Part shown: in pieces, positions 4,427-46,135 of the stretch
How the letters are laid out: each line of letters starts with the position of its first letter
Position numbering within the stretch: the stretch's first letter is position 1
Assembly (NCBI GenBank): GCA_025611195.1
Contig: GCA_025611195.1_4718.1
Source: a phage
Strand: one strand, 5' to 3'
Length of the DNA stretch: 64,000 bases
The notes under the pieces: model-generated
Databases searched by the model: none
What the model saw: the letters and a program-made list of their open reading frames with translations, nothing else
Told to the model about the DNA's origin: nothing
Position numbers and translations under genes: made by a program

Positions 4427-4427
4427 A

Positions 4428-5138
4428 TCACCCCCTCAGAATCGCTTCTGTTTCGCTGATCGTATCCGCAGGATAAACCAAACTACTATCGATTGCGTTA
4501 TTCACGTAACCACCCATTAAGTTGGTGATGGTGTTTGTACCACTATCGATAATGTTTCGTAATCCGATGTCGATGGCTTTTAAGGTACTGCGTTCTTCAT
4601 CCGAAAGCAGACGCCATGCCCGACGACGATCGTTGGGGTCACGCGTGGTGATAGACGCCAGAACAGAATAGATGCTGCTGTCTGCGTTCAGTTTAACGCC
4701 AGCCAATTTCGCTGACGTATACAACAACTGATATTTTTCTTTCTCAGTATACCACCATGGCACTTTACCGAGTGTATAGATCTCGTTATACATCAGCCAT
4801 GGGAAAGAGTTTCGCATCACGACGTCGGTCGACACCAACACCGTGTCACCAGGAAGAAATACGAACTCGTAAAACGGCTGACCATCCATGGTAATCTCAC
4901 GGATGTCAGACGGGTCGATATGGAGCTGGGTCAATGCGTGGCTGACACCATACTGACCATCAGGAAGAATAATCGGGCAGCACGCACAAACCCGGTTCTC
5001 ACTCCCGATGATAGATAAACCCAATCCCTCGTAACGGACGGGCGTCAGAATCGAACACCCGCCACGAGTAACAACAGATTTATCTTCTTGTATGTCCCAG
5101 TCCGCAAGCACCGCAGCACCGTTGCGGACAAGCGCCAT
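4428..5138 (-). CDS. hypothetical protein (236 aa)
   Basis: ORF tightly packed in minus-strand operon. Confidence 0.5.
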   Translation of the reverse strand: MALVRNGAAVLADWDIQEDKSVVTRGGCSILTPVRYEGLGLSIIGSENRVCACCPIILPDGQYGVSHALTQLHIDPSDIREITMDGQPFYEFVFLPGDTVLVSTDVVMRNSFPWLMYNEIYTLGKVPWWYTEKEKYQLLYTSAKLAGVKLNADSSIYSVLASITTRDPNDRRRAWRLLSDEERSTLKAIDIGLRNIIDSGTNTITNLMGGYVNNAIDSSLVYPADTISETEAILRG

Positions 5139-6662: not shown

Positions 6663-6895
6663 TACTGCGCTCCCTCCAACGCATTACTACCTACGGGTTC
6701 TTTGGTTTCCAGACGGCTGTTTAAACGCGCAGCAACCGCATCTTCCAATCCCAACGGCATAACCTTTTTGTTCACGTCAGGATCGGCGGCATCGTTACCA
6801 ACGGTTTGACGTACGACCTCAGCAACCAACGTTACCGCGTTCGTCAGCGCAACAAAGCTCGCTGCCCGAGCCGTGTTAAGTTGTTCTTGGTTCAT
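6662..6895 (-). CDS. hypothetical small protein (77 aa)
   Basis: Short ORF translationally coupled to downstream gene; AAGGAAAAG RBS. Confidence 0.45.
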   Translation of the reverse strand: MNQEQLNTARAASFVALTNAVTLVAEVVRQTVGNDAADPDVNKKVMPLGLEDAVAARLNSRLETKEPVGSNALEGAQ

Positions 6896-6997
6896 TCACT
6901 TTTCCTTTTTAATGTCAAAGCATCGCATTCTTGACATGCGTCAAGAAGGTATTGCGTTCAGCGAAATAAACGAGCAGGGGCATGACGCCCCATGCTC

Positions 6998-9900: not shown

Positions 9901-11344
9901 GAGCTAATTTTGCGGCTTTTGGTTTGACTTCAACATACTCGGCGAGCGTGAGTCCAGAACCGTCAGGTGCTTCGATTTCATGGATGGCGTCAGCGTTACG
10001 CATCGCTGCTTTATATTGGACGCCACTTAACTGCCCCGCATCGGCCAGATCGCTCGCGCGCACCAACACCGCATCCGATAACGACTGAATATACTCACCG
10101 TGTGTTTTTGGTAACGTTGCCGCGTCAAAGACATCAACCTTTTCTTCTTCGGTATCGTCGGTAACGACTTCGAAGAGATCGTCGGTAATGTCCTGATCTT
10201 CATCAGGTTGGAAATCCGGTTGTACTTCTACCCCGGGTACTTCACGGACATCTTCGAACGTGCGTTCTACAACGGCGTTCCATGCATCAGCGTCATCGTC
10301 TTCATCCGACCCACCAACCAACTCCGCTTCTAACTCATCGGGGTCAAGAACAGTGGCCAGATCCTCACCGTTAGGAAGCACGACGTCACGATCGTCGTAT
10401 TCCGCATCCGGGTCGTCGGTAAGAATATCTCGCTCTTGACGAAGAACCTGTTCCTCTTCTTGTTTCTGTTCTTCTTCATTCGCGCTCTGCGACCACAAAC
10501 GTGTTACCGCCATCATCCAACGACGCTGGAAGGTTTCAAGTGTCGTTTTATCGAGTTCTTCCCCTTCCTTTACAAGCCCGGTACGCCATTCCTCCAGCAA
10601 GCCGAGATTCAGCGTAAAGAAGTACACACCGTCTGTAAATACAACGTTAAGCTTATCTAGCGTGGCTCTGTCTAACGAAGCCATCGTGCTGTTCTCACGA
10701 TCGGTTCCCAACCAGCGGAAGAAGTCAAAGAACGACAGCTCCTCTGGCGTGGCGAAATTCATGAGGTTGTTGCGGGTCGGTGCCTGTTGCGTGGTGCGCA
10801 TCAACGAAATCTTCGGCAATGTTGTCGGTAAACGGAACAACAAAAAGTGTTGACGATCGCTTTGCTGTGCGATTTCGTTGGCTTTCGACCAAATTGTTTT
10901 ACGTACGTTGAACCATTCATCATACCAACGGGTGAGCGTTGGACGATAGATGTACATGTGGTTAAGATGCGCGTAGTTAGCAACGATCTGAGCGTTGATG
11001 TTTTTCTCCACCGTACTTAGATCGGTAACCAAACGAAAACGACGATGCGATGCACGATAATCCAATTTCGCTCGTGGAAGTTGGAATCGTTGATCACGTC
11101 GAGGTGCGCCTTGTTTGGTTGCGAGATCATCCGCAAACGAAATCCATAGTTGAGCATTTTCTTTACTCAGCATGTATTCGTTTTCTGGAGGACCTATCAA
11201 TGATGGATCCGTTGCGGTGTAATGATAGACAGCATAACGCGGCAGCTGCAATAGCTGCACTAAACGTAATCTTGGTGATAGTAGCTCTTGGTAGCGTCTG
11301 ACACCGAACTGTCGGTAGTAATCAAGGTATTTAAGTTTTGCCAT
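6998..11344 (-). CDS. RNA polymerase beta'-like subunit, C-terminal fragment (1448 aa)
   Basis: NNAGRWLTRQLTAM resembles the beta' bridge helix (ANSGYLTRRLVDV). Roughly 100-aa highly acidic insertion. GGAG RBS lies inside the end of the upstream ORF. Confidence 0.5.
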   Translation of the reverse strand: MAKLKYLDYYRQFGVRRYQELLSPRLRLVQLLQLPRYAVYHYTATDPSLIGPPENEYMLSKENAQLWISFADDLATKQGAPRRDQRFQLPRAKLDYRASHRRFRLVTDLSTVEKNINAQIVANYAHLNHMYIYRPTLTRWYDEWFNVRKTIWSKANEIAQQSDRQHFLLFRLPTTLPKISLMRTTQQAPTRNNLMNFATPEELSFFDFFRWLGTDRENSTMASLDRATLDKLNVVFTDGVYFFTLNLGLLEEWRTGLVKEGEELDKTTLETFQRRWMMAVTRLWSQSANEEEQKQEEEQVLRQERDILTDDPDAEYDDRDVVLPNGEDLATVLDPDELEAELVGGSDEDDDADAWNAVVERTFEDVREVPGVEVQPDFQPDEDQDITDDLFEVVTDDTEEEKVDVFDAATLPKTHGEYIQSLSDAVLVRASDLADAGQLSGVQYKAAMRNADAIHEIEAPDGSGLTLAEYVEVKPKAAKLAPAKVMPEADVIVDKSLCKSTLAVWDKHYVEHVMQKDIAAAVVAVQQAGYPVTGYKVEDVVDVMGDYQVITIKLAPVGGVPTTFPVMLPKVRKDGIYVVNGIKYRMRKQRVDKPIRKVSSSEVALSTAYGKVFVKRSERVVNNAGRWLTRQLTAMYYDKSSPLTTLKRGNVFDPAVKVPYYFAVLARNYTQIQFADWDIRLDIKTLPEFIGEDRFNEQLAEGLLTFARNTSDEFLAIDERNQLYICQSGQTPTPVGTFPDFFGINAAKMPIEAADLEFMGVRIPVGIVLSYLGGLTPLLEHLKANYRTVPRGSRMGLAADEFAVSFDDESLIFSKDDRMTTLLLGGFNEYRNYIGYARGAFDNRDIYFNVVDGAGLKVRHLRELELMERLFVDPVSRTLLQNMGEPTDFAMLLLRAVELLLDDWAPNTNDVNYQRFKTYDKFAELVYKDLVGAIRQNENSSQGNRQKISISPVSVWNQILDDSASIVIDETNPMLDIKQGEEATMTGIGGRSKTSLRRARDREYDKSDVGIVSEGTKDSGDVGISAYLAPNANIVSVYGETRPFDEKTDGISSVMSTSALAVPAVDRDDGKRLVFVGIQHNRMIAAEGYDVQPWRTGGETVIAHRVGKLFAAAAQGDGVVKKVTKTALTVQYDDPELGEEVFQLGTIIGKGPGKYYPHDLITDYKVGDRVKDQDVVVFHRLYFKRDWWNPGQVVWRAGVLSLVGILDIPETHEDSSYIFDNLAERLVTPSIKSRTLIVDAHLNIRGLVKIGDHVEPRTILATLEEPIATDLSDESQEAVEALRRMSQYNPRADVHGEVVQIDVLYRAQIEDMSETMAALVGDADKARAKRVKELKLNEATTGRINNSNVRIDGNPLGENQIAIRIFMRYDLGAGMGDKGTFAAQAKSVVSSVGHGVNKTEDGHTLDAIFSGTSIANRIIGSPEVVGTVNLGLLYATERAVDIYFNDAK

Positions 11345-11347
11345 GGG

Positions 11348-12994
11348 TTAGGCTCCACGAGGTCCCGTTAAGTTGCGTAATAGGAACGCAACCGTATCGT
11401 AACCAATATCAATGTTGAATTTATTTTTACCACTTACCCAGAAAGCTCGCTTCTTGTGCGAGTTGGTAATTTCGTCAATAGCTTCCATGGAATAAAGAAC
11501 GTTAACCGAGACCGTATCACCATCAAAGTCCCCACCAAGTCCGGCAAGGTATGGGGCTGGGACAATCGTCGTTTCTACGAACGATGCATTAGGTAACCAG
11601 TCGGGGTATTCCCATGCGATAAATCGTTCATCCGTTATTGGTTCCCAGTTACTATCCAGTTCGGTTTTCGGTTTTGCGGCAACGGTTGTACGTGCGTAAC
11701 AGGTCAACGGAATGACGGATTGCATACCGGATACCGGATAACGTGTTACCATCGCAGCCAGGTTATTCCAGTATTTATATCCGGCGATGTACACTAATTC
11801 GGTATACGTGATAGGGTGAACATCCGCACCAGGCTTATTCAGCATCTCTGGAGGTAATTCACTCATGCCACGGAATAACCGAAACGAATCATTATTTACA
11901 TAGACGAGACAAAGATAACGTCCATTAACCATGATAGGTTCATTGCGCACACCTGGATCGCTTAAGGTGTTCAATAAACGTTCTATTCCGTCCCACGTTG
12001 TAAAGTCATCGATGGTGTCTGGATCAAGCGTGACGCGCTCACGTTCCATCGTTTCGGTATCGATAAGCTCAACTTCGGTAACATCACGGACAAATATTTC
12101 CTGCAAAATACCGGTACGTAACGCGTGTTGCGTCACGGGTAGGGCGGCTTTGCTCATCTGGTATAACCCTAACTGAACAGCTGTGCAAGAAGGCTGGTTA
12201 GGCGACCCTAGTACCTCCGTTGTGGGGTTAATTGCCGAAATAACGTTACGGGTTGAGTTCCAAACGCGACGTGAGCCGAACTTACCTTGGAAGATCCCTT
12301 TCTTACCCTGGAACATATCCAACAACAAAGCGTAGATATCGTTAAATGTTCTCTGTAAGCTCCAGCGTTGACCGTCGTAAACGGGATCGGAATAATCTTT
12401 TAATCCATCAGGGACGGTGTTAGAAATTGCAAGGAAACGACGATACAACTCCGTGATTTCTTGCTCGCTTTCATACCCGCCTTCTTTTACTTCTATTTCA
12501 CGTAAGCCCGCAGGTAAAACCAGTAAGTGACGGGTCATCGCTTTGAACATGTTCTCTTCGACAACTTTAATTCGTAGCTCTCGTTGAGCTGAACCCGTTG
12601 AAACGAACTTGATATCCGCGACGTGTTGTGCAAAGAACCCGTATCCTGTTTGTCCTGTTAACGCATCAGACGCAACGAAGTCGCGTTGTTCAGGATCCCA
12701 ACGAGCATACGCCTTTCCTGACATGATATCACCATAGAGGTGTTTTAGTCGAATGAGGCGGTCGTAAATGACAGGGTGCAGGATTTCAACTTTGCATTCA
12801 ATCACCGCAAATCGACGATCTCGATCTTCACTACCTGCACTACCAAAGATGGTGTAAGAATAGAAACCATCATCGTGGAAATTACCGGTGCTTGGGTCAC
12901 GAATGCTCATGCTCGTGATCTTGGGGAGAAAACGTAACTGCTGTTTATCGAGGTGCAAAATACTAATATTAAACGGCTCTCTGACTTTAGCCAT
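11348..12994 (-). CDS. RNA polymerase beta'-like subunit, N-terminal fragment with DFDGD catalytic motif
   Basis: C-terminal GGDFDGDTVSVNVLYSMEA matches beta' NADFDGDQMAVHVPLTLEA. Start placed at ATG 12994 (GAGGAG RBS) not ORF-track 13036. Confidence 0.6.
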   Translation of the reverse strand: MAKVREPFNISILHLDKQQLRFLPKITSMSIRDPSTGNFHDDGFYSYTIFGSAGSEDRDRRFAVIECKVEILHPVIYDRLIRLKHLYGDIMSGKAYARWDPEQRDFVASDALTGQTGYGFFAQHVADIKFVSTGSAQRELRIKVVEENMFKAMTRHLLVLPAGLREIEVKEGGYESEQEITELYRRFLAISNTVPDGLKDYSDPVYDGQRWSLQRTFNDIYALLLDMFQGKKGIFQGKFGSRRVWNSTRNVISAINPTTEVLGSPNQPSCTAVQLGLYQMSKAALPVTQHALRTGILQEIFVRDVTEVELIDTETMERERVTLDPDTIDDFTTWDGIERLLNTLSDPGVRNEPIMVNGRYLCLVYVNNDSFRLFRGMSELPPEMLNKPGADVHPITYTELVYIAGYKYWNNLAAMVTRYPVSGMQSVIPLTCYARTTVAAKPKTELDSNWEPITDERFIAWEYPDWLPNASFVETTIVPAPYLAGLGGDFDGDTVSVNVLYSMEAIDEITNSHKKRAFWVSGKNKFNIDIGYDTVAFLLRNLTGPRGA

Positions 12995-27897: not shown

Positions 27898-29388
27898 TTA
27901 TTTTTTGCTTGGACGATTTAATGCGGGTACCGGGTTCTTTGGTTGCTTCGTCTTTTCATCCATCCAGTACGGGAAGTACTCGCCGGTACGCATACGCAAT
28001 AAGTCCATTGTGGACAGGAACGGCAGCGGGTTAGGATCATCCAGATACGTCCAGTAACCACGCGTGTTTAATAACACATCCCAATCGAACCCTTTTGCTT
28101 TAAGATCGTCGTACAGTTCCTGTGGGGTGCAATACAATTGTGGGTTTTCGTAAACCTCTTGACGCCAGAGATTATGCATCTGGCATAGCTCCGACGTAAT
28201 TTCCAGAGCACGCTGTAAATACTCATCTTCTTCGCAGAGGGAACGAATGGTCGTACGCTGCAACGCAACATCCGGATAAATATCCAAATACACCGTTGAA
28301 GCACCATCAGCTGACTTACCACCTGATGCATGCATACCCCAACCACGCATCCAATCTTTATCGCGCAGGTAGTGGTATTCCGTTAACGATGGCTTAACCC
28401 CTTCGCTCTGACTAACTACAATCGGGAACGGTAAGCCAGTGGGTCCGTTTTTAGCACGCATGTTGAAGACTTGGATCATCTGCAGATCGGTATCGCCGAT
28501 AAGGTTGTCGCCAGGTCCACGCGGATAAAGAACGCGTTTATCGGCGTTCTGAAGAATCGTCAGTTTATCGATTTTCCAGAGGTTATTCGTATAAAACGTG
28601 AAGCGTTCGGGGACGTTCTTAAACTTCTCATCACCCTTAAACCCTTTCAGTTTTCGTACCGGCTGCTGTCCAGGCATACCACCAACGTTTACACCGTCAC
28701 CGAGGTGAGCGGTCATGGTAATGTAGATACCTGCTGACGCTGTAAGTACCGGCATCTGTGATAGAATCTGGCTTTTCGCTGCTGCCGAACGCATCGCTTC
28801 AGCATTCAGTTTTGCACCACCTGCGGTTTCTTTATCAAACAGTGCGTCAACGGCATCGATGGGTAATCCAGAGAAACTGTCGATGAGTACGACGGTCGGT
28901 AACCACCAGGTATAGTTCTCACCATGTTTATTAATGAACGGAACAGCTTTGCGTTGGGATTTATCTTTGACCTTGTCGTCACGGAATTTCTTAATCGCAT
29001 CAAACCAAATGTTACCACTCATCTGAACGGCATCGGTGATAAACACGCGTTCTTCTTCGAAAAGATCGACGCCAGCGATATTAGACATGTTCATCGCAAG
29101 CGTTAAGATACGTGTTGTCGTTAACGACATTTCTGTGTCGTAAACGCTACTATTGCTGTTCGCGTAACGATCGATAACACGTAACAAGCGAAACATTATG
29201 AACGTGGTTTTGTTCATGTTGCCGCGAGCGCCTGCGCCCTCAACAAGCATCATACCGCCGTTACAAATGCTTTCACCGTGTTTACCGACATAGTACCGAC
29301 CACCAGATGTGGGAATATCCATTAAGCAACCAATGTTGAGATTAAAACGCATCTCTTCACCGGGAGAAAGGTACTTATTAAGATTCAT
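27898..29388 (-). CDS. hypothetical protein (496 aa)
   Basis: Long ORF heading a minus-strand operon; no Walker or nuclease motif recognised. Confidence 0.55.
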   Translation of the reverse strand: MNLNKYLSPGEEMRFNLNIGCLMDIPTSGGRYYVGKHGESICNGGMMLVEGAGARGNMNKTTFIMFRLLRVIDRYANSNSSVYDTEMSLTTTRILTLAMNMSNIAGVDLFEEERVFITDAVQMSGNIWFDAIKKFRDDKVKDKSQRKAVPFINKHGENYTWWLPTVVLIDSFSGLPIDAVDALFDKETAGGAKLNAEAMRSAAAKSQILSQMPVLTASAGIYITMTAHLGDGVNVGGMPGQQPVRKLKGFKGDEKFKNVPERFTFYTNNLWKIDKLTILQNADKRVLYPRGPGDNLIGDTDLQMIQVFNMRAKNGPTGLPFPIVVSQSEGVKPSLTEYHYLRDKDWMRGWGMHASGGKSADGASTVYLDIYPDVALQRTTIRSLCEEDEYLQRALEITSELCQMHNLWRQEVYENPQLYCTPQELYDDLKAKGFDWDVLLNTRGYWTYLDDPNPLPFLSTMDLLRMRTGEYFPYWMDEKTKQPKNPVPALNRPSKK

Positions 29389-30815: not shown

Positions 30816-32354
30816 TTACTCCAACACATAACGTGGGTTACTGTATATGTTAGCCCATATACCAACGTCGTCCCCCGACTCAATAATCACGGCAAAACGA
30901 AACGCAACATCAGACTCGCGATATGTTACCGCGTACGCTTTCGTTTCCGGTGATGCTAAATAGCTCAAGTTCAGACGTTGAGGCAGGTCTAACCCCAAGG
31001 ACATGGTACAGGACGTAACACCCTGCTTATCGGGGGTCAGTCTGTAATTCACATCCACCTTCAGGCTTTTCGTAACCTGCGTAATCGCACTATGCACTTT
31101 GGTAACCGTTTTGCCTTTCTTATCCTTTTCTGTTTCGAAAAGAACGTCGGTAATTTCGGTTACGACCAGACGCGGTGTGGATTCGCGGTTAGCGTCAAGC
31201 CATTCATCCAGTAACGTCTTTAAGAAGTTCAAGGAATCAATCGCACGCCAAGCAAGGTTAGGCGGATTGCATGCTTCCATTAAAATGGCTGTGTTCGATC
31301 CACCTAGCGGAAGATGCACGCTCTTACCGAGGCCTGTTGGACGCATCGTAAGATCGCACTCACCCTCAAGAATATCGCGATGATATTGACGATGATGAAG
31401 GTTATCCGTGTATGCAATATACACTGACTCCGTTGTCCCATGCTCTAATACCCGAGATGCATGCGTACGCATAATCTCAATAGCATCATCCGGCTTGCTT
31501 AAATAGATAACACTATACGCGCTATCGCTAATCCTTTTCCCTAACTCAAGACGTCCCTTGTTGTCTTTATCGGTGTTACCACCGAAATAGATATAGCGGC
31601 CATCTTTCGCACGCTCTTGCTGCTGGTTGGTGGTAAAGTAGCAGCGCGAGAACGTAAAGAACGGGCTTATTTCCGGTTCGGGGCTCCAATACCCCTTGGC
31701 CGGAAGTTCGCGACGTATTTGGGTTCTTACAGCCCAGTCCTGGTTTTGTGATAGATATGTTCCACGCGTTGCCAACATATCCGCACGTTCGTTGCCAACA
31801 TTGCCCTCATGTCCAGGAACGTAGCGCAGCGAAATATCGATAGCGTCGCGCTTCGCATCCCTTATCGCACTATCGAGTTTCCGCCACCGTTCCGCATTCA
31901 TTAACGGTTTATTGTCGGATTTAACCCAGTTGTTCTCTCGCCAGTTAGCAAGATGGTTGGTGGCACCCACAACAACATATTGGCTGTCCGACAACAGCTG
32001 GATCCGTTTTGCCCCCTTTGCTTTTCCAAGTTCAATCGCACGTATTGCAGCATCCAACTCAGCCTGATTGTTCGTTACATTGAAACCCAAAGCCTCTAAC
32101 TCATCCACGTATTCCTTGGGTTCGACAAGCACAGCGTCTTTAGGAAAGTTGAGTTTAGGGTCAACATAACCGTATTGTGTTGGTTTGGGCTTTCCACTTT
32201 TTGAAGGTTCCAAGGTGCCTTTTATTTCTTTCACCATATCGTAGGTGTAGCCATGCACGCCATAGCCACCATACCCACTCGATGTTGGACGGGATCCTCC
32301 ATCACAGTAGAAAACGGCACCAAGCTCAGTATTTCCTGCCATTGTAAACCTCAT
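30816..32354 (-). CDS. rnh: RNase HI-domain protein with about 320-aa C-terminal extension
   Basis: N-terminal motifs CDGGSR...GYGGYG, NQAELDAAIRA, LLSDSQYVV and GHEGNVGNERADMLA match RNase H catalytic signatures. Confidence 0.65.
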   Translation of the reverse strand: MRFTMAGNTELGAVFYCDGGSRPTSSGYGGYGVHGYTYDMVKEIKGTLEPSKSGKPKPTQYGYVDPKLNFPKDAVLVEPKEYVDELEALGFNVTNNQAELDAAIRAIELGKAKGAKRIQLLSDSQYVVVGATNHLANWRENNWVKSDNKPLMNAERWRKLDSAIRDAKRDAIDISLRYVPGHEGNVGNERADMLATRGTYLSQNQDWAVRTQIRRELPAKGYWSPEPEISPFFTFSRCYFTTNQQQERAKDGRYIYFGGNTDKDNKGRLELGKRISDSAYSVIYLSKPDDAIEIMRTHASRVLEHGTTESVYIAYTDNLHHRQYHRDILEGECDLTMRPTGLGKSVHLPLGGSNTAILMEACNPPNLAWRAIDSLNFLKTLLDEWLDANRESTPRLVVTEITDVLFETEKDKKGKTVTKVHSAITQVTKSLKVDVNYRLTPDKQGVTSCTMSLGLDLPQRLNLSYLASPETKAYAVTYRESDVAFRFAVIIESGDDVGIWANIYSNPRYVLE

Positions 32355-39171: not shown

Positions 39172-39801
39172 TTATTCAACAAATCCCGCGTTCAACAAAT
39201 TGTCGTAAACACGATTAGCGACATCAACAGGAGAATGTGTGTTACTGGTGTCTATACACAACGTTTTCGCGTCGCCGAGATAGTCCATAAAATCCATGTA
39301 ACGATAACGTCGTTTATTGAATGTCGCTTCATCGATGTTATCAAACATCTGATGTTTAGCGTGGCGAACACGGAACCGTCTTAAATACGTAGGATAGTCA
39401 ATATCCAGATAAACGTAGTAAGATGGCATGATAATCGACGGTAGGTTCGGCAACAACGCATCAAACAGCTTAACGTTAGCATCATTAACCTGATAAACGT
39501 ACGTCGAAGCAATCGAACGATCGCTAAGCACAGTCTTCCCTTCGTTAAGGGCTGGATGAATCACCTTATTGAAGAGATGATTCCGTTGCGACATCATCGC
39601 CAATAGTTCAGTTTCTGGATCGAATCTGTTCGTTGGCGTCTGATCTTCCAGGATAAGTTTACGAATCGCTTCTCCGTAGAGTGTACCGCCGGGTTCACGT
39701 ACAACACAGACATTGTTTAAACGACTGTGTAAAGACGAGATAACCGAACTCTTTCCTGAATAATCCAGACCTTCAATAACGATATATTTATTACGAGACA
39801 T
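39172..39801 (-). CDS. tmk: thymidylate kinase (dTMP kinase)
   Basis: KYIVIEGLDYSGKSS P-loop, REPGGT and DRSIASTYVYQ align with E. coli Tmk (KYIVIEGLEGAGKTT, REPGGT, DRHDLSTQAYQ). Start at ATG 39801 after GGAGCGGGGA. Confidence 0.85.
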   Translation of the reverse strand: MSRNKYIVIEGLDYSGKSSVISSLHSRLNNVCVVREPGGTLYGEAIRKLILEDQTPTNRFDPETELLAMMSQRNHLFNKVIHPALNEGKTVLSDRSIASTYVYQVNDANVKLFDALLPNLPSIIMPSYYVYLDIDYPTYLRRFRVRHAKHQMFDNIDEATFNKRRYRYMDFMDYLGDAKTLCIDTSNTHSPVDVANRVYDNLLNAGFVE

Positions 39802-39817
39802 TCCCCGCTCCAATTAA

Positions 39818-40999
39818 CTATTTCGTTTTTGCCGTCAACGGTTGCGATACCGTAATCTCGACACGATTCTCATCGGTACGTTTAACGATGATAAGGTTGC
39901 GCTCGTCACCGAATGGTTCTGCTACCTTGGAAGCCTCTTTAAGATTTTCAAGAATCTCACCGAAAGCTTCAAATACCGCAAAACCAGAGCTAACATCAAT
40001 TCTTACTAAATGTACACGCATATCGTTTACGGTAACGGTGTCATCCGTCTTGAACCCGCAACAGGAGGGTAGACAGAACTGACCATTAACGCAGTTATCT
40101 AAGTATGCTTCACCGCCGAACATTTCTATTAACGTCACCGGTTTAAATGTTTTCTCTGGGAAAGCACTATTAAGGGTATCGTTTCCGTTCACGAACCAGA
40201 TCGTTACTTTATCTTCGGAATACGCTAGTCGGTACGGTTGGGTTGCGGACGCTTGCGCTTTATGCTGGTTAAATAACTTTGATTTTGTCGCAATCGCAGC
40301 ACGACCTTCGACGTCGAAGTACAGAACTTCATATCCAACACATCCGATAAACACGCGACGGTTATTAAGTTCCGGAATTCTGACTAATAATGCTTCACCG
40401 TTGTATCCAGTAGGAACAATACCGCGTAGGATGATAGATTCATTGTTCAATACCGAGTTATCTGCAGTGATACTTCGCATTACCGCTGGCGTCACTATTT
40501 TATCTGCGGTAGGTTCAGGTTGCTCAGCAATGCGGTCAAAAGGTTCGATGGTTACCGCGGGAACGAAGTATTCAACTATATGCTTGTTTTCAGCACCAAC
40601 GTCCATGACGGTGATCTGCAAACGCGTAGCATCCGAATTCAATGCCTGTCTCACACGTTCTGCATTAGGAGTATCGCGGTCAATATGAATCAAGGCTTTT
40701 ACCACACCGTCGTCTTCCAACCATCCTGTTAAAACGCGACCGACGATATCATTCACGTCACGAATCGGGAAGCGCAGTTCAGCGCCATCGAGCACTGCTT
40801 CGATTTTACTGCTAGTGACGGGCACCTTACCGTCGTTAAGATGTGCCAACAGACCGGTTAATGCATCTTCACTAACCGGATATTTTGTCGTTGTACTGAC
40901 CAACGGTACGATAAAACGATCTTCGCTGTATTTCTCTGCACCACAGATAACCGGGACTTGAGGGCATTGATCAACTAGGCCCCACTCAACAGTATTCAT
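39818..40999 (-). CDS. hypothetical protein (393 aa)
   Basis: Long ORF between RuvC-like gene and tmk; no phosphoesterase motifs. Confidence 0.5.
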   Translation of the reverse strand: MNTVEWGLVDQCPQVPVICGAEKYSEDRFIVPLVSTTTKYPVSEDALTGLLAHLNDGKVPVTSSKIEAVLDGAELRFPIRDVNDIVGRVLTGWLEDDGVVKALIHIDRDTPNAERVRQALNSDATRLQITVMDVGAENKHIVEYFVPAVTIEPFDRIAEQPEPTADKIVTPAVMRSITADNSVLNNESIILRGIVPTGYNGEALLVRIPELNNRRVFIGCVGYEVLYFDVEGRAAIATKSKLFNQHKAQASATQPYRLAYSEDKVTIWFVNGNDTLNSAFPEKTFKPVTLIEMFGGEAYLDNCVNGQFCLPSCCGFKTDDTVTVNDMRVHLVRIDVSSGFAVFEAFGEILENLKEASKVAEPFGDERNLIIVKRTDENRVEITVSQPLTAKTK

Positions 41000-41031
41000 A
41001 ACGTTTTCCTTCTTGGGTTTTGTACATGTTG

Positions 41032-41646
41032 CTAACGGCGTTTTGTACCAACCTTCCCATTTCGATGGTCGTCAAGAATACGCCATTCTTCGAACAGGAG
41101 TTCAGCTGCGAAATAACCTACGGCGATGCTGTCTATCGCATGCTCATCAAGATTCGCTAACACAACACCGTTTCTGGGTGTGATGTTCATGAGGTTCAAC
41201 ACTTTCTGGCGAACATCGTCCTTACCGACACGGGACGTCATGATCCCAACGGCGCGTTTTGCGCTTCGGTTATCAACCCCTAAGAAAGACACCGTAGGGT
41301 CAAAATCGATAACCGTTGTCTGAATCGCTGAAAACAGTTCACTGAGCGCCATACCGCTTTGCTTGAAACGACCGATAAACGGTGTTTCACAAGCGACCGC
41401 TTGCGGTTGGTACTCTTGCAATAACGATGTCAGCGAACGACGATGTTCTTGGATACGTGCGGCACGGTTACCGTATCCAAGAGCAATATCGCCATCAGGA
41501 TCATATCGGCGTGAGGCGTGCCATGTCCCCGCATAAAGCAGTTCAATATCTTCGACACGCACGTCCAAACGCAGTAACGACGCACCGAGTGTATCGGTGC
41601 CAGGGTCGATTGCCAGAATATCGTAAGCGTATTCTGGTGGGATCAT
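41032..41646 (-). CDS. RuvC-like Holliday junction resolvase
   Basis: ILAIDPGTDTLGA, AVACETPF and EHAIDSIAVGYF resemble RuvC catalytic motifs. Start ATG 41646 overlaps upstream stop (ATGA). Confidence 0.5.
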   Translation of the reverse strand: MIPPEYAYDILAIDPGTDTLGASLLRLDVRVEDIELLYAGTWHASRRYDPDGDIALGYGNRAARIQEHRRSLTSLLQEYQPQAVACETPFIGRFKQSGMALSELFSAIQTTVIDFDPTVSFLGVDNRSAKRAVGIMTSRVGKDDVRQKVLNLMNITPRNGVVLANLDEHAIDSIAVGYFAAELLFEEWRILDDHRNGKVGTKRR

Positions 41647-42458
41647 GGTGTTACAACAGCCTCTACTGACCACGGGAAGGTTTTCGCAATAACGCCTTCC
41701 AGGAAGCGTTCAACTTCGGCTTGCTCATACACCGAAAGCTTTTCAAACGGCGTTTGGTCCTCGGTTAAACCCACCGCATGAATAGGACCCAGATCTTTAA
41801 CCAGGGTAACTTCGCCTTTAACGCCTTCACGTTTAACGATAACCGCATGGTCATTAACCTTAGGGTCGTACAACACACGCATCATGGTTACCGCATCATC
41901 CGGTTCATAACCGAAATCGATCGCAACGCGAGCACTCGTCCCTTCTTCATCCAAGAGCTTGCTCAACGCTTTACAACGGTCTTCAATCCAATCCAACGCA
42001 ACCACGGTTTCTTGGCGTAGCTGAACCTCAACTTCTTTTCCTTGTTCGTCGATACGTTTCACGGTAACAAAATCACGCAATAAGCGGTCAGGAAGAAGGG
42101 AAGCGATAAGTTCAACGTTGGGTTCGGGTTTATCGTTTTCCAGAATGATGGTCGCTTGTGCGTCCAGATGTTCTTTAAAACGGATGTAACGTGTTAATCG
42201 CAGAACTTCATCCTGGGATTTTGCGTCTTCGGGAATAATCTCCGTCATGACGTTATAAATCTTTTCAGCGAACGTTGGAATTACGGTGATTGTAATTCGT
42301 GCTGGTGTACCACGCTCCTGGTACTCATCGGCTAACTTCTTTGCCATCCCGTTAAAGTAGGTCTGGAGAAACGGTTGTTGGGTTAAAAACATTTTCTCCA
42401 GATCGGAATAGCGATGCTTGCGCGCGTGGCCTAGCTTCTTCATGGGCTTTTTCATCAA
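41643..42458 (-). CDS. hypothetical protein (271 aa)
   Basis: ORF between Rad50-like and RuvC-like genes. Confidence 0.5.
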   Translation of the reverse strand: MMKKPMKKLGHARKHRYSDLEKMFLTQQPFLQTYFNGMAKKLADEYQERGTPARITITVIPTFAEKIYNVMTEIIPEDAKSQDEVLRLTRYIRFKEHLDAQATIILENDKPEPNVELIASLLPDRLLRDFVTVKRIDEQGKEVEVQLRQETVVALDWIEDRCKALSKLLDEEGTSARVAIDFGYEPDDAVTMMRVLYDPKVNDHAVIVKREGVKGEVTLVKDLGPIHAVGLTEDQTPFEKLSVYEQAEVERFLEGVIAKTFPWSVEAVVTP

Positions 42459-42476
42459 CAGAAATCCTTATTTATC

Positions 42477-44933
42477 TTAAATAATCGTGACGTGTTCGTT
42501 ATACGTTTCAGGGAGGATGATGTTCGTTTTATCAAGAACCATACACTCAGCTTTACGGAATGATGCATGGTTGATAACATAGTGGCTGATGAACCACACT
42601 TGGCTTACGCGATGACCATCGACCAAACGACGAACAAAATCCATGGCATTAGATTGGTGCTGCGGATCAAATGTTGATGCGAATTCATCTAACATCAACG
42701 GATAATCCGTAAACCCCTTGTAATGCATCATCGCGATGATAAACGCGATATTGATAATTTCCTTTTGTCCCTTACTCCCATAAACAATATCTTTTCGCGG
42801 CGTCGGATACTTCTCAGTTAAAAGCGGAAAACGATAGTTCAATCCTTGCGCGTCGATAGCACACGGAAGTATCTGAAGTTGGTATTCCCAAATACTCGAA
42901 ATGATACCGTTCATGTATTCAACGAACGCGTTGATTGGACCAGCGATTGTTTCGGCAATCAATCCGTTGGATGGACTCAACTCATCCAGAACAAGTTGTG
43001 CGTAACTGAGCTGTTCTTCCACCTCTTTTTGCGTTGTTTCCAACTGAGCCAGAAGCTGCTGGTCGGTTTTAGCTTCCTGTAACTGCTGTTCGACATGACT
43101 TATCCGGCGAACCGTATCAGACATCGCAGCACGTAGTGATTTCGTGTAAAGATGCTGTAGATACTCCAACCACAGTTGCGTTAACGCTTTATCGCTACTA
43201 TCAGAACGTACCTGATCTTCCATAATCGCCGTAATGGTTTCCAATCTACCTTCCGTAGCTGTGATGGCTTGTGTTAACCGTTCAACGGTTGTTAACAACT
43301 CTGTCCTGTTCTTATAAAGCAGTTCTCGACGTTGCTGTAATGGTTCAACATCAACCGCTTGTACACGTTCGAGCATATCCTGAAGATGTTTACGTTCTTG
43401 CTCGGCTTGTGTATAACGCGCGAGTTTCTCGAATGCAAGCAACCAGTCGTTAATGATGCCAATACTGCGGAATCCTAAACCGTTTTTGCGGCCTTCTTCC
43501 AGCAGATTATCCCACATGGGTTTAATAGCGTAATAATCTTTCGTCCAACGCGTTAACTGACGATGCTGTTCCATCCAAAGCGTATAACGCTGCACCTTCT
43601 CATTAAGTTCGGCTAACGATTTCTCCTGTTCTTCAACCCAAGCGCGACCCTTCTGAATACGTTGTTCAATGCTCGCTTTGCTGGTCTTTTCTGTCTCACC
43701 AACATGAAAGCGATAATTGCATTTTGGACAGCTGGTCTGGGGTTGATGGTTAAGATGGTCAAGATGCGCTTCCAAATCGGCTAACGCGTGTTTCGCGTTA
43801 CGCAAACGCATTCGTGCCGCCTCTTCCTCCTTGATGTAAGCTTCAGCATCGTAAACATGATAGGTGTTGTCGGTATCAATCCATTCTTGCAATAGTTCCG
43901 TTAACGGAGCCTGAACTTGCGTGAGCTGTTGTAAACAAACCGCGGCGTCCAGATTCATCGTTAAAAGCTCACCTGGATGATCATGCTGAAGTTGTTCGTC
44001 CAAACAGGCAAGGCGGGCTTTAATCTGATCGATATCGCCTTCTCCAGACTGTTTCAACTGGTCAAGGATATTATCGATACCCAACAGCTCGTCAACCTGA
44101 CTTTCGAGTTTCGCATTCGCATTCGCGAGTTGCTCTCTTAGTTCAGCCAGATTCCGCTGTTCTTGTTGCGATGTTCCTCCTTGGTAACGAACAACCGCAC
44201 GAAGAAGCTCGCGATTAAAATGATGGGCACGTTGTGCGGATTCCAGAAGCTGTCGTTGATCAACATCGCTATCGAATAACGGCAATCCCATCATCGCTTC
44301 GAGCGCCGAGCGTTGCTGCTTTAACTCTGCTTCCAATCCCTGGTGGTCGGTTCCAGTGTATTTCGCTTCAATTCGCTGTGATGTTTCAACCAACTTATTC
44401 AATGTGTGCTCATTCACCGCTTTCAGTGAACGTACCTGTTGCTTAACAACCTGAAACAGCTCAAGCGCATAATCGACGTTAACCGGGCATATCTGCGTTA
44501 ATCGTTCGCGACGTTTCATCGGTCCCATTTCGGTGAACTGGTAAGCTGTTTCGTAACCTAACAACAAACGAATGGTGTCGTCATTAAGTTCGAAATGTTC
44601 TTCGATCAGTTTCCACTGGGCTGGTTGTGTGCCACCACCATTCAAGTTCTCACTGTCGTTAACGTAGAACTCGTGCTTAAACCCTTTTTCTAAACGACTG
44701 ATAAGACGGTATTGCTTATTACGGTGTTCGCAGCGGTACTCGTAATACCCGTCTTTATCAAAATCAGCGCGCTCGGGAACGGTTGGATACAGCAAAGGCA
44801 GTAGACTGCTCTTACCCGAACCATTACTACCTAGAATGAGTTGTACGGGATTATCTGGCCGGATGACCAGCTCCCGAATCATCCCGGTATCAAAACGATT
44901 GAATCCACGTAAGTGGAGATAGGTGCATCGCAT
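42477..44933 (-). CDS. Rad50/SbcC-like recombination ATPase
   Basis: Walker A LILGSNGSGKSSLL, central CPKCNYRF zinc-hook-like CxxC in coiled-coil region, C-terminal LMLDEFASTFD Walker B. Start at ATG 44933 (MRCTYLHLRGF) with AGAAGGA RBS. Confidence 0.7.
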   Translation of the reverse strand: MRCTYLHLRGFNRFDTGMIRELVIRPDNPVQLILGSNGSGKSSLLPLLYPTVPERADFDKDGYYEYRCEHRNKQYRLISRLEKGFKHEFYVNDSENLNGGGTQPAQWKLIEEHFELNDDTIRLLLGYETAYQFTEMGPMKRRERLTQICPVNVDYALELFQVVKQQVRSLKAVNEHTLNKLVETSQRIEAKYTGTDHQGLEAELKQQRSALEAMMGLPLFDSDVDQRQLLESAQRAHHFNRELLRAVVRYQGGTSQQEQRNLAELREQLANANAKLESQVDELLGIDNILDQLKQSGEGDIDQIKARLACLDEQLQHDHPGELLTMNLDAAVCLQQLTQVQAPLTELLQEWIDTDNTYHVYDAEAYIKEEEAARMRLRNAKHALADLEAHLDHLNHQPQTSCPKCNYRFHVGETEKTSKASIEQRIQKGRAWVEEQEKSLAELNEKVQRYTLWMEQHRQLTRWTKDYYAIKPMWDNLLEEGRKNGLGFRSIGIINDWLLAFEKLARYTQAEQERKHLQDMLERVQAVDVEPLQQRRELLYKNRTELLTTVERLTQAITATEGRLETITAIMEDQVRSDSSDKALTQLWLEYLQHLYTKSLRAAMSDTVRRISHVEQQLQEAKTDQQLLAQLETTQKEVEEQLSYAQLVLDELSPSNGLIAETIAGPINAFVEYMNGIISSIWEYQLQILPCAIDAQGLNYRFPLLTEKYPTPRKDIVYGSKGQKEIINIAFIIAMMHYKGFTDYPLMLDEFASTFDPQHQSNAMDFVRRLVDGHRVSQVWFISHYVINHASFRKAECMVLDKTNIILPETYNEHVTII

Positions 44934-44958: not shown

Positions 44959-44978
44959 TTCTGAACCATGGTTCAGAA
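44959..44978. promoter_or_regulatory. 20-bp perfect palindrome TTCTGAACCATGGTTCAGAA (operator-like)
   Basis: Perfect dyad in divergent region between Rad50-like gene and 45047 gene, 26 nt upstream of ATG 44933. Confidence 0.4.
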
Positions 44979-45046: not shown

Positions 45047-46135
45047 ATGAGCGATCTGGCAACAGACAACCGCACAAAAGGGAGTCAGTTAGCTCCAGAC
45101 AGCAACGTAAGCGTTTTCCGTATCTTTGCCTTGGGTACCGTTGCTGCCGACTTTTCCAATAAAAGTCTGGAGGAAGATCCGAACCAGGCGCTGGAGGTCT
45201 TTCTTGACGAGATGATGTCAGGTGCTGACGGGAAAGTTGAAGCGGCGGGAAGCGTGAAAGAAGTTAGTGCAACAGACGCTCAAGGGAACAGTTATACCGC
45301 AAAAGCGGCAACAACAACCAGCGTACAGTGTTACTGGTTACCCTTTGGTAGTAACCGGATGACAGCACCTAACTTGAGGAAAGGTCAGCGTGTGGTGGTC
45401 TGGCGTACTGCCGATGAAGAACAACTCTACTGGCAGCCCAAAGGAGGGGATAGTGAGCTGATGACCATGGAATCGGTTATCCTCACCGTCAGTGCACGTC
45501 CTAGCGCTAAGAAGGACCGTAAATCGATTTCAACGGAAGACTGCTATTACCTAATGGTTGATACCTTTCTTAAGAAAGCGGTTATCGGTACAAGCGCACA
45601 GCTTGGTGAAGTTACCCAAGTCTACATGGAACTTAATCTGGACGAGGGTTACTTACAGGTTGCGGACAGCGTCCATCAAAACCTACTATTGCTCCATTTT
45701 GTCGAGCATATGCTGCGATACCAAAACCAGGACGACAGCATTATCGACGTAACAAAAAAGAACATCACATTCCAATGCGAGGATACGCTCAAAGCAATCG
45801 CTAAGAACGATATCCGAATGAAAGCAAAAAATATTTATACGGAATGTGAGAACTTTGAACGTACCAGCAAAACAGAAAGCGTTACGAGTCAGAATGTTTC
45901 TTTGAAATGCGATCGCTACACCGCGCAAGTATCAGGACAAACCATATTCAAATGTCCGAATACGGTATTCACCGGAGCCGTGAGTTTCACTGGTGAAGAC
46001 GGAAACACGATGACATTGAACGGTAACTTCATACACGTCGCGGGATCTTGGCGTTCACCAAGCGGAACAAACGTGTACACTCACGACCACGGTGGTGTTA
46101 AATCCGGTAGTAGTAGAACCGACCCGTTTCAATAA
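45047..46135 (+). CDS. hypothetical protein (362 aa), possible beta-helical spike-like protein
   Basis: GGAG RBS. C-terminal half has alternating beta-like repeats ending in YTHDHGGV, reminiscent of HxH apex motifs of puncturing spikes; weak. Confidence 0.45.
   Translation: MSDLATDNRTKGSQLAPDSNVSVFRIFALGTVAADFSNKSLEEDPNQALEVFLDEMMSGADGKVEAAGSVKEVSATDAQGNSYTAKAATTTSVQCYWLPFGSNRMTAPNLRKGQRVVVWRTADEEQLYWQPKGGDSELMTMESVILTVSARPSAKKDRKSISTEDCYYLMVDTFLKKAVIGTSAQLGEVTQVYMELNLDEGYLQVADSVHQNLLLLHFVEHMLRYQNQDDSIIDVTKKNITFQCEDTLKAIAKNDIRMKAKNIYTECENFERTSKTESVTSQNVSLKCDRYTAQVSGQTIFKCPNTVFTGAVSFTGEDGNTMTLNGNFIHVAGSWRSPSGTNVYTHDHGGVKSGSSRTDPFQ

What the first reader, a model, noticed from the sequence alone, without database searches (positions are those of the whole stretch)
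39172..44933. Recombination/nucleotide module lacking a recognisable Mre11/SbcD nuclease partner
Seen: Rad50/SbcC-like ATPase, 271-aa unknown, RuvC-like resolvase (start overlapping upstream stop), 393-aa unknown, then thymidylate kinase, all co-directional and tightly packed. Established: Rad50-type ATPases normally pair with an Mre11/SbcD phosphoesterase encoded adjacently. No DxH, GDxxD or GNHE phosphoesterase motifs were found in the 271-aa or 393-aa proteins. Inference: one of the unknowns is a non-canonical nuclease partner, or the partner is encoded elsewhere.
Basis: partly seen in the sequence, partly recalled or inferred. Interest (0 to 1): 0.5.

Follow-up and report, generated by a model that had tools for sequence, protein, structure and literature searches.

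The report
Jumbo-phage SbcC whose SbcD lies elsewhere
This is the ordinary recombination and nucleotide gene cluster of a Goslar-like nucleus-forming jumbo phage, and the "missing" Mre11/SbcD nuclease is a normal gene about 81 kb away in Goslar, as in all relatives checked.

Summary
The five co-directional genes are real and lie on the minus strand: SbcC/Rad50-like ATPase, a 270-aa unknown, RuvC, a 393-aa unknown and dTMP kinase. The window is 94% identical in DNA to Escherichia phage Goslar (gp012 to gp008), a chimallivirus.

No Mre11/SbcD gene lies in the cluster or anywhere in the 64-kb window. Goslar does carry a clear SbcD homologue, Goslar_00178. It has all five phosphoesterase motifs, and its family profile hits solved Mre11/SbcD structures. 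It is annotated only as "hypothetical protein" and lies about 81 kb from SbcC, about 36 kb beyond the window's left edge. In the ten chimalliviruses compared, SbcC (phiKZ gp165) and SbcD (phiKZ gp065) are 78–129 kb apart or at distant gene numbers, and both are listed as core genes.

The 270-aa and 393-aa proteins show no motif or profile relation to Mre11/SbcD. Their structure models were too poor to interpret. The 270-aa protein is a strongly conserved lineage-restricted orphan, always found between SbcC and RuvC. The 393-aa protein fills a variable slot and is itself hypervariable.

Interest is low.

The parts
42477..44933 (-). SbcC/Rad50-like ABC ATPase, 818 aa (Goslar gp012, phiKZ gp165 homologue). 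An alternative ATG at 44969 gives 830 aa.
   Evidence: phrog_77 1.8e-75 and Pfam SMC_N 1.1e-9 (38.5 bits, just below the 40-bit cut-off). Motifs: Walker A GSNGSGKS at 35-42, CPKC zinc hook at 402-405 (mid-protein), signature-like SKGQ at 720-723, Walker B LMLDE at 746-750, H-loop FISH at 781-784. The hook region hits NCBIfam Rad50_Sulf at 2e-4. 99.2% aa identity to Goslar.
41643..42455 (-). 270-aa orphan protein (Goslar gp011), function unknown. Always found between SbcC and RuvC, and probably translationally coupled to RuvC.
   Evidence: No Pfam, PHROG or NCBIfam family assignment; the only Pfam hit is a sub-threshold Ad_Cy_reg match. Only 4 relatives among 1.84 billion representative proteins. 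dN/dS 0.046. Same position in two further lineages at about 45% identity. hhalign against the SbcD family gives probability 0.3%. The AF2 model is poor, pLDDT 49.7.
41032..41646 (-). RuvC-like Holliday junction resolvase, 204 aa (Goslar gp010). Its ATG overlaps the upstream stop codon as ATGA.
   Evidence: Pfam RuvC 26.0 bits (cut-off 22.2) and phrog_159 2e-21. ATGA overlap read. The segments IDPGTD, CE(T/V)PF and DEHAID are conserved in the 53%-identical L007 homologue.
39818..40999 (-). 393-aa hypervariable two-domain protein (Goslar gp009), function unknown. It occupies a variable slot between RuvC and Tmk.
   Evidence: No family hits. 183 clusters at 90% identity. The N-terminal ~160 aa come in two allelic types while the C-terminal ~230 aa are conserved. 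dN/dS 0.24. The slot is empty in L007 and holds a 163-aa protein weakly related to the N-terminal domain in L014. hhalign against SbcD gives probability 0.1%.
39172..39801 (-). dTMP (thymidylate) kinase, 209 aa (Goslar gp008)
   Evidence: Pfam Thymidylate_kin 9.6e-28; TIGR00041 111 bits against an 83 cut-off. 100% aa identity to Goslar. Homologues are cytoplasmic in other chimalliviruses (bioRxiv 10.1101/2023.02.24.529968).
45047..46135 (+). Baseplate assembly protein (phiKZ gp164 homologue), the conserved divergent neighbour of SbcC. Context only.
   Evidence: phrog_3216 2.7e-61. The same divergent pairing is annotated in Goslar, PhiPA3, 201phi2-1, Noxifer and Eowyn. An unnamed minus-strand ORF of similar size sits at the same place in LucasX, pEa_SNUABM_54, L007 and L014.
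27898..29388 (-). UvsX/RecA-like recombinase (Goslar gp193). Context: other recombination machinery in the window.
   Evidence: phrog_97 2.4e-32. Goslar gp193 localises with the phage nucleus (bioRxiv 10.1101/2021.10.25.465362).
30816..32354 (-). RNase H-domain protein (context)
   Evidence: phrog_3265 3.1e-103 and phrog_531 2.8e-27.

Best explanation
The region is the gp012-gp008 block of a Goslar-like chimallivirus (nucleus-forming jumbo phage).

The SbcC/Rad50-like ATPase is the homologue of phiKZ gp165, a core gene of the family. It most likely works as the ATPase and coiled-coil subunit of an Mre11-Rad50-type end-processing complex. Its nuclease subunit is a canonical SbcD/Mre11 phosphoesterase encoded far away: Goslar_00178, the phiKZ gp065 homologue, about 81 kb from SbcC and about 36 kb beyond the window's left edge. 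That complex would resect DNA ends for UvsX-dependent recombination and replication. RuvC would resolve branched intermediates. Tmk supplies dTDP and probably acts in the cytoplasm.

The cluster is therefore a gene neighbourhood and not one machine. The 270-aa and 393-aa proteins are lineage-restricted accessory genes and are not Mre11 substitutes.

Shown: gene identities, motifs, absence of SbcD from the window, presence of SbcD in Goslar and Goslar-like genomes, and the separation of the two genes in the chimalliviruses compared.
Inferred: physical SbcC-SbcD pairing, action inside the phage nucleus, and presence of SbcD in this window's own genome.
For: 1. Identity. 94.0% nt identity over 100% of the region to Goslar positions 4198-9989. 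Collinear flanks.

2. The SbcC is a bona fide Rad50 type. It has a split ABC head and a central CPKC hook, which is conserved in a 49%-identical homologue.

3. SbcD exists in Goslar.
- tblastn with the annotated SbcD of Ralstonia phage RP12 hits Goslar 162633-163742 at 2e-49.
- phrog_100 'SbcD-like' 1.8e-40.
- Motifs DIH, GDVFD, GTNLHD, MHG and GHIH are present, and their key residues are invariant in 33 family members.
- The family profile hits T. maritima Mre11/SbcD 2q8u at 7e-9, plus E. coli SbcD and P. furiosus Mre11.

4. Co-occurrence.
- SbcC is found in 289 phage records and SbcD in 313, with near-identical genus counts.
- One Shigella sonnei assembly (contig length 243,814 bp recorded for both entries) carries SbcD as LRN42_000140 and SbcC as LRN42_000220.
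- The Salmonella ACI5OW assembly (contig length 241,126 bp recorded for all three entries) carries SbcD together with the 270-aa and 393-aa genes.

5. Separation is the rule. The two genes are 78-129 kb apart in Goslar, LucasX, pEa_SNUABM_54, PhiPA3, Noxifer, Eowyn, FLC9, Yong-XC32 and phiLBG22 (coordinates). In RP12 they are ORF69 and ORF282 (PMC5468394). PhiPA3 gene 059 corresponds to phiKZ gp065.

6. Both appear in the core-genome list of an antisense screen of phiKZ genes and give phenotypes there ('Nuclease 065', 'SbcC-like nuclease 165'; PMC12571901). No transposon insertions were recovered in orf165 (bioRxiv 10.1101/2025.11.23.690004).

7. The unknowns are not SbcD. No motifs, hhalign probability 0.3% and 0.1%, no Metallophos hit, and no detectable homologue in any GenBank phage outside Goslar itself.
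Against: - The SbcD gene was not seen in the window's own genome. The window ends about 36 kb short of it, and I could not read the rest of the 135-kb source contig. Presence is inferred from Goslar and from a cluster of about 250 SbcD sequences from Goslar-like phage contigs.
- No physical interaction was tested, and co-folding was not available.
- Goslar SbcD scores below the Pfam Metallophos cut-off on its own (14.8 bits against 21.5). It also gives no single-sequence hit in PDB. Only the family profile and PHROG give clear hits.
- The strict SbcC-270aa-RuvC synteny, with an overlapping stop/start in at least two lineages, leaves room for the 270-aa protein to be an extra accessory factor.
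Confidence: 0.85

Rival explanations
1. The 270-aa protein (gp011) is a lineage-specific accessory subunit or adaptor of the SbcC-SbcD complex or of RuvC. It could be a DNA-binding, regulatory or nuclear-import factor. It would act in addition to the distal SbcD and would not replace it.
For: - Its position between SbcC and RuvC is conserved in three lineages that have diverged to about 45-50% aa identity.
- The stop/start overlap with RuvC is ATGA in the window and 4 nt in L014.
- Strong purifying selection: dN/dS 0.046, with 302 members in one 90% cluster.
- The predicted secondary structure is two alpha-beta3-alpha units. There are sub-threshold dsRBD-like Foldseek hits.
Against: - No detectable homologue in other chimallivirus genera, which have the same SbcC and RuvC.
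- No family or structural match.
- The model is low-confidence (pLDDT 49.7), so the fold hints carry no weight.
- Synteny in closely related phages may simply be inherited gene order.
Confidence: 0.12
2. One of the two unknowns (270 aa or 393 aa) is a non-canonical nuclease that replaces Mre11/SbcD as the catalytic partner of the SbcC-like ATPase.
For: Only adjacency and co-orientation with SbcC.
Against: - A canonical and highly conserved SbcD is present in the Goslar genome and in Goslar-like contigs.
- Neither unknown has metal-binding motifs or profile similarity.
- No histidine is invariant in the 270-aa family.
- The 393-aa gene is hypervariable and is absent or replaced in sister lineages.
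Confidence: 0.02
3. The SbcC-like protein works without any nuclease, as an SMC-like DNA tether or condensin for the phage chromosome, and SbcD has an independent role.
For: - The two genes are never linked in this family.
- The only cellular Pfam hit is the generic SMC_N.
Against: - The protein has the Rad50-specific central CxxC hook.
- Phyletic co-occurrence with SbcD is near perfect.
- PHROG assigns it to the SbcC family at 1.8e-75.
Confidence: 0.05

Closest known systems
Escherichia phage vB_EcoM_Goslar gp008-gp012 (NC_048170 / MK327938)
   Same: Same five genes in the same order and orientation. 94% nt identity. SbcC 99.2%, RuvC 99.5% and Tmk 100% aa identity.
   Different: The 393-aa protein is only 87% identical, with indels. 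The window also lacks a 2-kb segment of Goslar elsewhere, which holds the annotated intron and gp206.
phiKZ gp165 (SbcC-like) and gp065 (SbcD-like nuclease), core genes of Chimalliviridae
   Same: Homologous SbcC (about 24-28% identity to the PhiPA3 and 201phi2-1 homologues), always divergent from the gp164-type baseplate gene. SbcD is encoded about 80-130 kb away. Both appear in the core-genome list of the phiKZ antisense screen.
   Different: In other genera SbcC is not followed by the 270-aa gene, RuvC or Tmk. That arrangement is confined to the Goslar lineage and two sister lineages.
E. coli SbcCD, T4 gp46/gp47, archaeal and eukaryotic Mre11-Rad50
   Same: Split ABC ATPase head, long central region with a CxxC zinc hook, and a partner with the five calcineurin-like phosphoesterase motifs.
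   Different: In E. coli and T4 the two genes are adjacent or co-transcribed (own knowledge). Here they are unlinked. Motif III of the phage SbcD reads G-T-x-x-H-D, whereas the canonical form is GNH[DE]. Sequence similarity to cellular proteins is low, with no single-sequence PDB hits.

Membership tests
Rad50/SbcC ATPase (for the 818-aa protein) | ABC-type head split into N-terminal Walker A and C-terminal signature, Walker B, D-loop and H-loop | tested here: met
   GSNGSGKS at 35-42, SKGQ at 720-723, LMLDE at 746-750, FISH at 781-784. SMC_N 1.1e-9 (just below the Pfam cut-off) and phrog_77 1.8e-75.
Rad50/SbcC ATPase (for the 818-aa protein) | Long insertion between the head halves with a central CxxC zinc hook | tested here: met
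   CPKC at 402-405 of 818. It is conserved as CPKCNYRFH in a 49%-identical homologue. NCBIfam Rad50_Sulf matches residues 369-483 at 2e-4. Coiled-coil propensity itself was not computed.
Rad50/SbcC ATPase (for the 818-aa protein) | Mre11/SbcD nuclease partner encoded in the same genome | tested here: met
   Goslar_00178 in Goslar. Both genes occur in the same assemblies of Goslar-like phage. The partner is not adjacent and not in the window. Its presence in the window's own genome is inferred.
Rad50/SbcC ATPase (for the 818-aa protein) | Physical complex with the nuclease and ATP-dependent nuclease activity | not testable with these tools
   No multimer prediction or biochemistry was available.
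Mre11/SbcD calcineurin-like phosphoesterase (for the 270-aa and 393-aa proteins) | Five metal-binding motifs (DxH, GDxxD, GNH[DE], H, GHxH) | tested here: not met
   None of the motifs occurs in either protein. No histidine is invariant in the 270-aa family. Only H246 is invariant in the 393-aa family.
Mre11/SbcD calcineurin-like phosphoesterase (for the 270-aa and 393-aa proteins) | Profile similarity to Metallophos or the phage SbcD family | tested here: not met
   No Metallophos hit at E<=1. hhalign probability 0.3% and 0.1% against the 33-sequence SbcD family. The SbcD HMM gives only noise in the window.
Mre11/SbcD calcineurin-like phosphoesterase (for the 270-aa and 393-aa proteins) | Calcineurin-like beta-sandwich fold | tested here: inconclusive
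   AF2 models reached pLDDT 49.7 and 44.8. Foldseek against PDB gave nothing at E<=0.001. The models are too poor to exclude any fold.
Mre11/SbcD (for Goslar_00178, outside the window) | Five phosphoesterase motifs and profile match to solved Mre11/SbcD | tested here: met
   D20/H22, G56-D57-D60, G96-T97-H100-D101, H172 and G209-H210-H212 are invariant in 33 sequences. The profile hits 2q8u at 7e-9, plus 3qg5, 6s6v and 1ii7. phrog_100 1.8e-40. Pfam alone is sub-threshold.
RuvC resolvase (204-aa protein) | RuvC profile above the curated cut-off and conserved acidic catalytic residues | tested here: met
   Pfam 26.0 bits against a 22.2 cut-off; phrog_159 2e-21. IDPGTD, CE(T/V)PF and DEHAID are conserved against L007. 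Assigning these to the catalytic tetrad rests on my own knowledge of E. coli RuvC.
dTMP kinase (209-aa protein) | Equivalog model above the curated cut-off | tested here: met
   TIGR00041 111 bits against 83.25. Pfam Thymidylate_kin 9.6e-28.

The most novel reading that the evidence does not exclude
The 270-aa orphan (gp011) sits between SbcC and RuvC in three diverged lineages. Its stop codon overlaps the RuvC start in the window and in L014. It could be a new accessory factor that links or regulates the Mre11-Rad50-type complex and the resolvase inside the phage nucleus, for example a DNA-binding adaptor built from two alpha-beta3-alpha modules. Separately, the 393-aa protein, with its swappable N-terminal domain, could be a host-specificity or counter-defence determinant lodged in a variable slot.
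Probability: 0.12. Interest if true: 0.4.

Novelty: already known. Interest (0 to 1): 0.12.

Why it matters
It matters little as a discovery. The apparent anomaly, a Rad50-type ATPase without Mre11, disappears once the whole genome is considered.

Three practical points come out of it:
- Adjacency of Mre11 and Rad50 cannot be assumed in chimalliviruses.
- The Goslar reference annotation misses its SbcD (Goslar_00178 is labelled hypothetical), which can be corrected.
- The RuvC-Tmk junction is a variable accessory slot, and gp011 is a tightly conserved orphan that could be a cheap target for knock-down or localisation studies in the Goslar system.

Tried and rejected
- **AlphaFold2 models.** The 270-aa protein (4-sequence alignment) and the 393-aa protein (20-sequence alignment) gave pLDDT 49.7 and 44.8. 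I treated them as unusable for fold inference.
- **Foldseek against PDB.** Neither model gave a hit at E<=0.001. There were recurrent sub-threshold hits to dsRBDs for the 270-aa model and to T4 gp21 and herpesvirus assemblin proteases for the 393-aa model. I disregarded these: the models are poor, and the N-terminal domain has no invariant Ser or His.
- **Profile searches of PDB.** The profiles of the two unknowns returned only noise.
- **Exhaustive HMMER search.** The 270-aa protein found only 4 relatives in 1.84 billion representatives, so there is no remote family.
- **Internal duplication in the 270-aa protein.** Only an 18-residue match at E=0.035. Not established.
- **Single-sequence PDB searches.** SbcC and Goslar SbcD gave nothing. 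Only the family profile worked.
- **Source contig.** I tried to reach the window's own 135-kb contig to see its SbcD. The look-up returned only a 4.4-kb Logan contig.
- **Promoter and terminator scan.** Nothing above shuffled expectation inside the cluster. Chimallivirus promoters are not sigma-70 type, so this says little.
- **Rfam scan of the window.** No hits.
- **Third fold search.** Not used, because the models do not justify it.

Full report
**What is there**

The finding's coordinates cover five co-directional ORFs on the minus strand:
- 42477-44933: 818 aa; an alternative upstream ATG at 44969 gives 830 aa.
- 41643-42455: 270 aa.
- 41032-41646: 204 aa.
- 39818-40999: 393 aa.
- 39172-39801: 209 aa.

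Profile searches identify three of them.
- The first is an SbcC/Rad50-like ABC ATPase: PHROG 77 'SbcC-like subunit' 1.8e-75; Pfam SMC_N 1.1e-9, at 38.5 bits just below the 40-bit cut-off.
- The third is RuvC: Pfam 26.0 bits, above the 22.2 cut-off; phrog_159 2e-21.
- The fifth is dTMP kinase: Pfam 9.6e-28; TIGR00041 111 bits, above the 83 cut-off.

The 270-aa and 393-aa proteins match no family in Pfam, PHROGs or NCBIfam. The only hit is a sub-threshold Pfam Ad_Cy_reg match for the 270-aa protein. The RuvC ATG overlaps the stop codon of the 270-aa gene as ATGA. Neither unknown contains a DxH, GDxxD, GNH[DE] or GHxH motif.

**Where it comes from**

The region is 94.0% identical in DNA, over its full length, to positions 4198-9989 of Escherichia phage vB_EcoM_Goslar, that is gp008-gp012. 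Goslar is a 237-kb nucleus-forming jumbo phage, a chimallivirus. The rest of the window is collinear with Goslar 200,227-237,301 and then 1 to about 29,000. The exact proteins carry locus tags OE718_002082 to OE718_002085 in an E. coli TPA assembly, with a recorded contig length of 135,334 bp.

Comparison with Goslar shows that all five are real genes under purifying selection:

| Gene | dN/dS |
|---|---|
| Tmk | 0.00 |
| RuvC | 0.012 |
| SbcC | 0.017 |
| 270-aa | 0.046 |
| 393-aa | 0.24 |

**The ATPase is a genuine Rad50/SbcC type**

It has these motifs:
- Walker A, GSNGSGKS, at 35-42.
- A CPKC motif at 402-405, the midpoint of the 818 residues, where a zinc hook is expected.
- A signature-like SKGQ at 720-723.
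- Walker B, LMLDE, at 746-750.
- An H-loop, FISH, at 781-784.

The hook segment CPKCNYRFH is conserved in a 49%-identical homologue. It also matches the hook region of the NCBIfam Rad50 model.

Annotation notes equate the PhiPA3 and 201phi2-1 homologues with phiKZ gp165. Two functional-genomics papers bear on that gene. [quoted passage not shown] The other lists 'SbcC-like nuclease 165' in its core-genome table, with a knock-down phenotype (PMC12571901).

**Where the nuclease partner is**

A paper on Ralstonia phage RP12, a phiKZ relative, lists SbcC as ORF69 and SbcD as ORF282, far apart in the genome (PMC5468394). I fetched RP12 ORF282 and searched with it.

- It finds nothing in the window.
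- It hits 313 phage records, including Goslar at 162,633-163,742 with E 2e-49.

That Goslar gene, Goslar_00178, is 380 aa and is annotated only as 'hypothetical protein, weakly similar to 201phi2-1p121'. The evidence that it is SbcD/Mre11:
- It matches PHROG 100 'SbcD-like subunit' at 1.8e-40.
- It contains DIH, GDVFD, GTNLHD, MHG and GHIH.
- The key residues of these motifs are invariant across 33 diverse family members.
- A profile of that family hits solved T. maritima Mre11/SbcD (2q8u, 7e-9), E. coli SbcD and P. furiosus Mre11.

On its own the protein is below the Pfam Metallophos cut-off and gives no single-sequence PDB hit. This probably explains the missing annotation.

An HMM of this family run against all 475 six-frame ORFs of the window gave only noise (best 7 bits). 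It scored 434 bits on the Goslar control. So the nuclease gene lies about 81 kb from SbcC on the circular map, and about 36 kb beyond the window's left end.

**This separation is the family norm**

Coordinates give the shortest distance between SbcC and SbcD on a circular map:

| Phage | Distance (kb) |
|---|---|
| Goslar | 81 |
| LucasX | 85 |
| pEa_SNUABM_54 | 107 |
| PhiPA3 | 129 |
| Noxifer | 106 |
| Eowyn | 78 |
| FLC9 | 79 |
| Yong-XC32 | 89 |
| phiLBG22 | 120 |

The genus distributions of the two searches are almost identical. Pseudomonas 81/81, Erwinia 62/62, Salmonella 24/24, Serratia 21/21, Aeromonas 19/19, Klebsiella 16/16 and Ralstonia 13/13 match exactly, and Vibrio is 22/23. This shows tight phyletic co-occurrence.

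PhiPA3 gene 059 (SbcD-like) is annotated as the homologue of phiKZ gp065. 'Nuclease 065' is in the core-genome list of the antisense screen, with a phenotype. Iyer et al. (PMC7824862) already describe the SbcC-SbcD pair as practically universal in jumbo phages.

Within Goslar-like phages, SbcD forms one 90% cluster of 254 members. SbcD, SbcC and the two unknowns carry locus tags from the same assemblies, with the same longest-contig length recorded for each. Examples are Shigella sonnei LRN42_000140 and LRN42_000220, and Salmonella ACI5OW_003249, _003091 and _003089.

What is conserved next to SbcC is the divergently transcribed baseplate gene. The pairing (phiKZ gp164/gp165) is annotated in Goslar, PhiPA3, 201phi2-1, Noxifer and Eowyn. 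An unnamed minus-strand ORF of similar size sits at the same position in LucasX, pEa_SNUABM_54, L007 and L014.

**The two unknowns are not Mre11 substitutes**

Profile-profile comparison with the SbcD family gives probabilities of 0.3% for the 270-aa protein and 0.1% for the 393-aa protein.

*The 270-aa protein* is a true orphan.
- tblastn finds it in no GenBank phage other than Goslar.
- An exhaustive HMMER scan of 1.84 billion representatives finds four relatives.
- Across the three lineages that have it, no histidine is invariant. That is incompatible with a calcineurin-type metal site.
- It is strongly conserved, with 302 members in one 90% cluster.
- It keeps its place between SbcC and RuvC in two further lineages at about 45% identity (L007; L014/L015). 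In L014 its stop overlaps the RuvC start by 4 nt, as in the window.

This leaves a modest possibility that it is an accessory factor of SbcC or RuvC. Inherited gene order explains the synteny equally well.

*The 393-aa protein* behaves differently.
- It splits into 183 clusters at 90% identity.
- Its N-terminal ~160 residues come in two allelic types, while the C-terminal ~230 residues are conserved.
- Its slot between RuvC and Tmk is empty in L007.
- In L014 the slot holds a 163-aa protein weakly similar to the N-terminal domain, at E 2e-4 for a single comparison.

This is the signature of a variable accessory locus. It is not what a partner of a core enzyme would look like.

AlphaFold2 models of both proteins were of low confidence (pLDDT 49.7 and 44.8). 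Foldseek found nothing significant. Structure therefore neither supports nor excludes anything.

**How it most likely works**

The SbcC-like ATPase and the distal SbcD form an Mre11-Rad50-type complex that processes DNA ends. The UvsX-type recombinase, also in the window at 27898-29388, acts on the resected ends; its Goslar homologue gp193 localises with the phage nucleus. RuvC resolves junctions. An RNase H-domain protein lies at 30816-32354.

Tmk homologues of other chimalliviruses are cytoplasmic. The 'module' is therefore a neighbourhood of genes acting in different compartments and not a single complex.

Gene identities and locations are shown. The pairing, the compartment and the pathway are inferred from family knowledge.

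**Verdict**

The arrangement is the known organisation of Chimalliviridae, so novelty is 'already known' and interest is low.

The residual open items are the functions of gp011 and gp009, and direct confirmation of SbcD in the window's own assembly.

Noticed in passing
window 39818-40999 (-): The 393-aa gene is hypervariable among Goslar-like phages: 183 clusters at 90% identity, against 3 for the neighbouring 270-aa gene. The N-terminal ~160 aa occur in two allelic types, while the C-terminal ~230 aa are conserved and mosaic. dN/dS against Goslar is 0.24, against <=0.05 for its neighbours. The RuvC-Tmk junction is a variable slot: empty in L007, and holding a 163-aa protein weakly related to the N-terminal domain in L014.
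   Followed up: partly
window 11521-11529 (junction); Goslar NC_048170 211,748-213,799: The window lacks a ~2.05-kb segment present in Goslar. That segment holds the annotated group I intron (211,817-212,245) and gp206 (similar to phiKZ ORF179), between virion RNA polymerase beta-subunit pieces. The window therefore appears to carry an intron-less allele. Rfam finds no intron in the window.
   Followed up: partly
Goslar MK327938 162,609-163,751 (outside the window): Goslar_00178 is annotated 'hypothetical protein' but is a clear SbcD/Mre11 homologue (phiKZ gp065 family) with all five phosphoesterase motifs. This is an annotation gap in the reference genome.
   Followed up: yes
protein clusters of window genes: Goslar-like phage genomes turn up as single 235-248-kb contigs in many Salmonella, E. 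coli and Shigella isolate assemblies at NCBI and ENA. This suggests carriage (pseudolysogeny or a carrier state) or co-culture of this lytic jumbo phage with clinical and food isolates.
   Followed up: no
window 45047-46135 (+) and 42477-44933 (-): The divergent pairing of the baseplate gene (phiKZ gp164 type) with SbcC (gp165 type) is annotated in five chimallivirus genera, and a like-sized unnamed ORF sits at the same place in the other four loci inspected. Everything downstream of SbcC differs between genera.
   Followed up: partly
window 41643-42455 (-): The predicted secondary structure of the 270-aa orphan is two successive helix / three-strand / helix units. There is a weak self-match, KKLADEYQERGTPARITI against KALSKLLDEEGTSARVAI (E 0.035). 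The most conserved segment across lineages is EKIYNVMTEIIPE.AK...R.TRYIRF (residues 64-93).
   Followed up: partly
window 27898-29388 (-) and 30816-32354 (-): A UvsX-like recombinase and an RNase H-domain protein lie 10-15 kb from the SbcC-RuvC block. Much of the phage's recombination machinery, apart from SbcD, is therefore within about 17 kb.
   Followed up: partly
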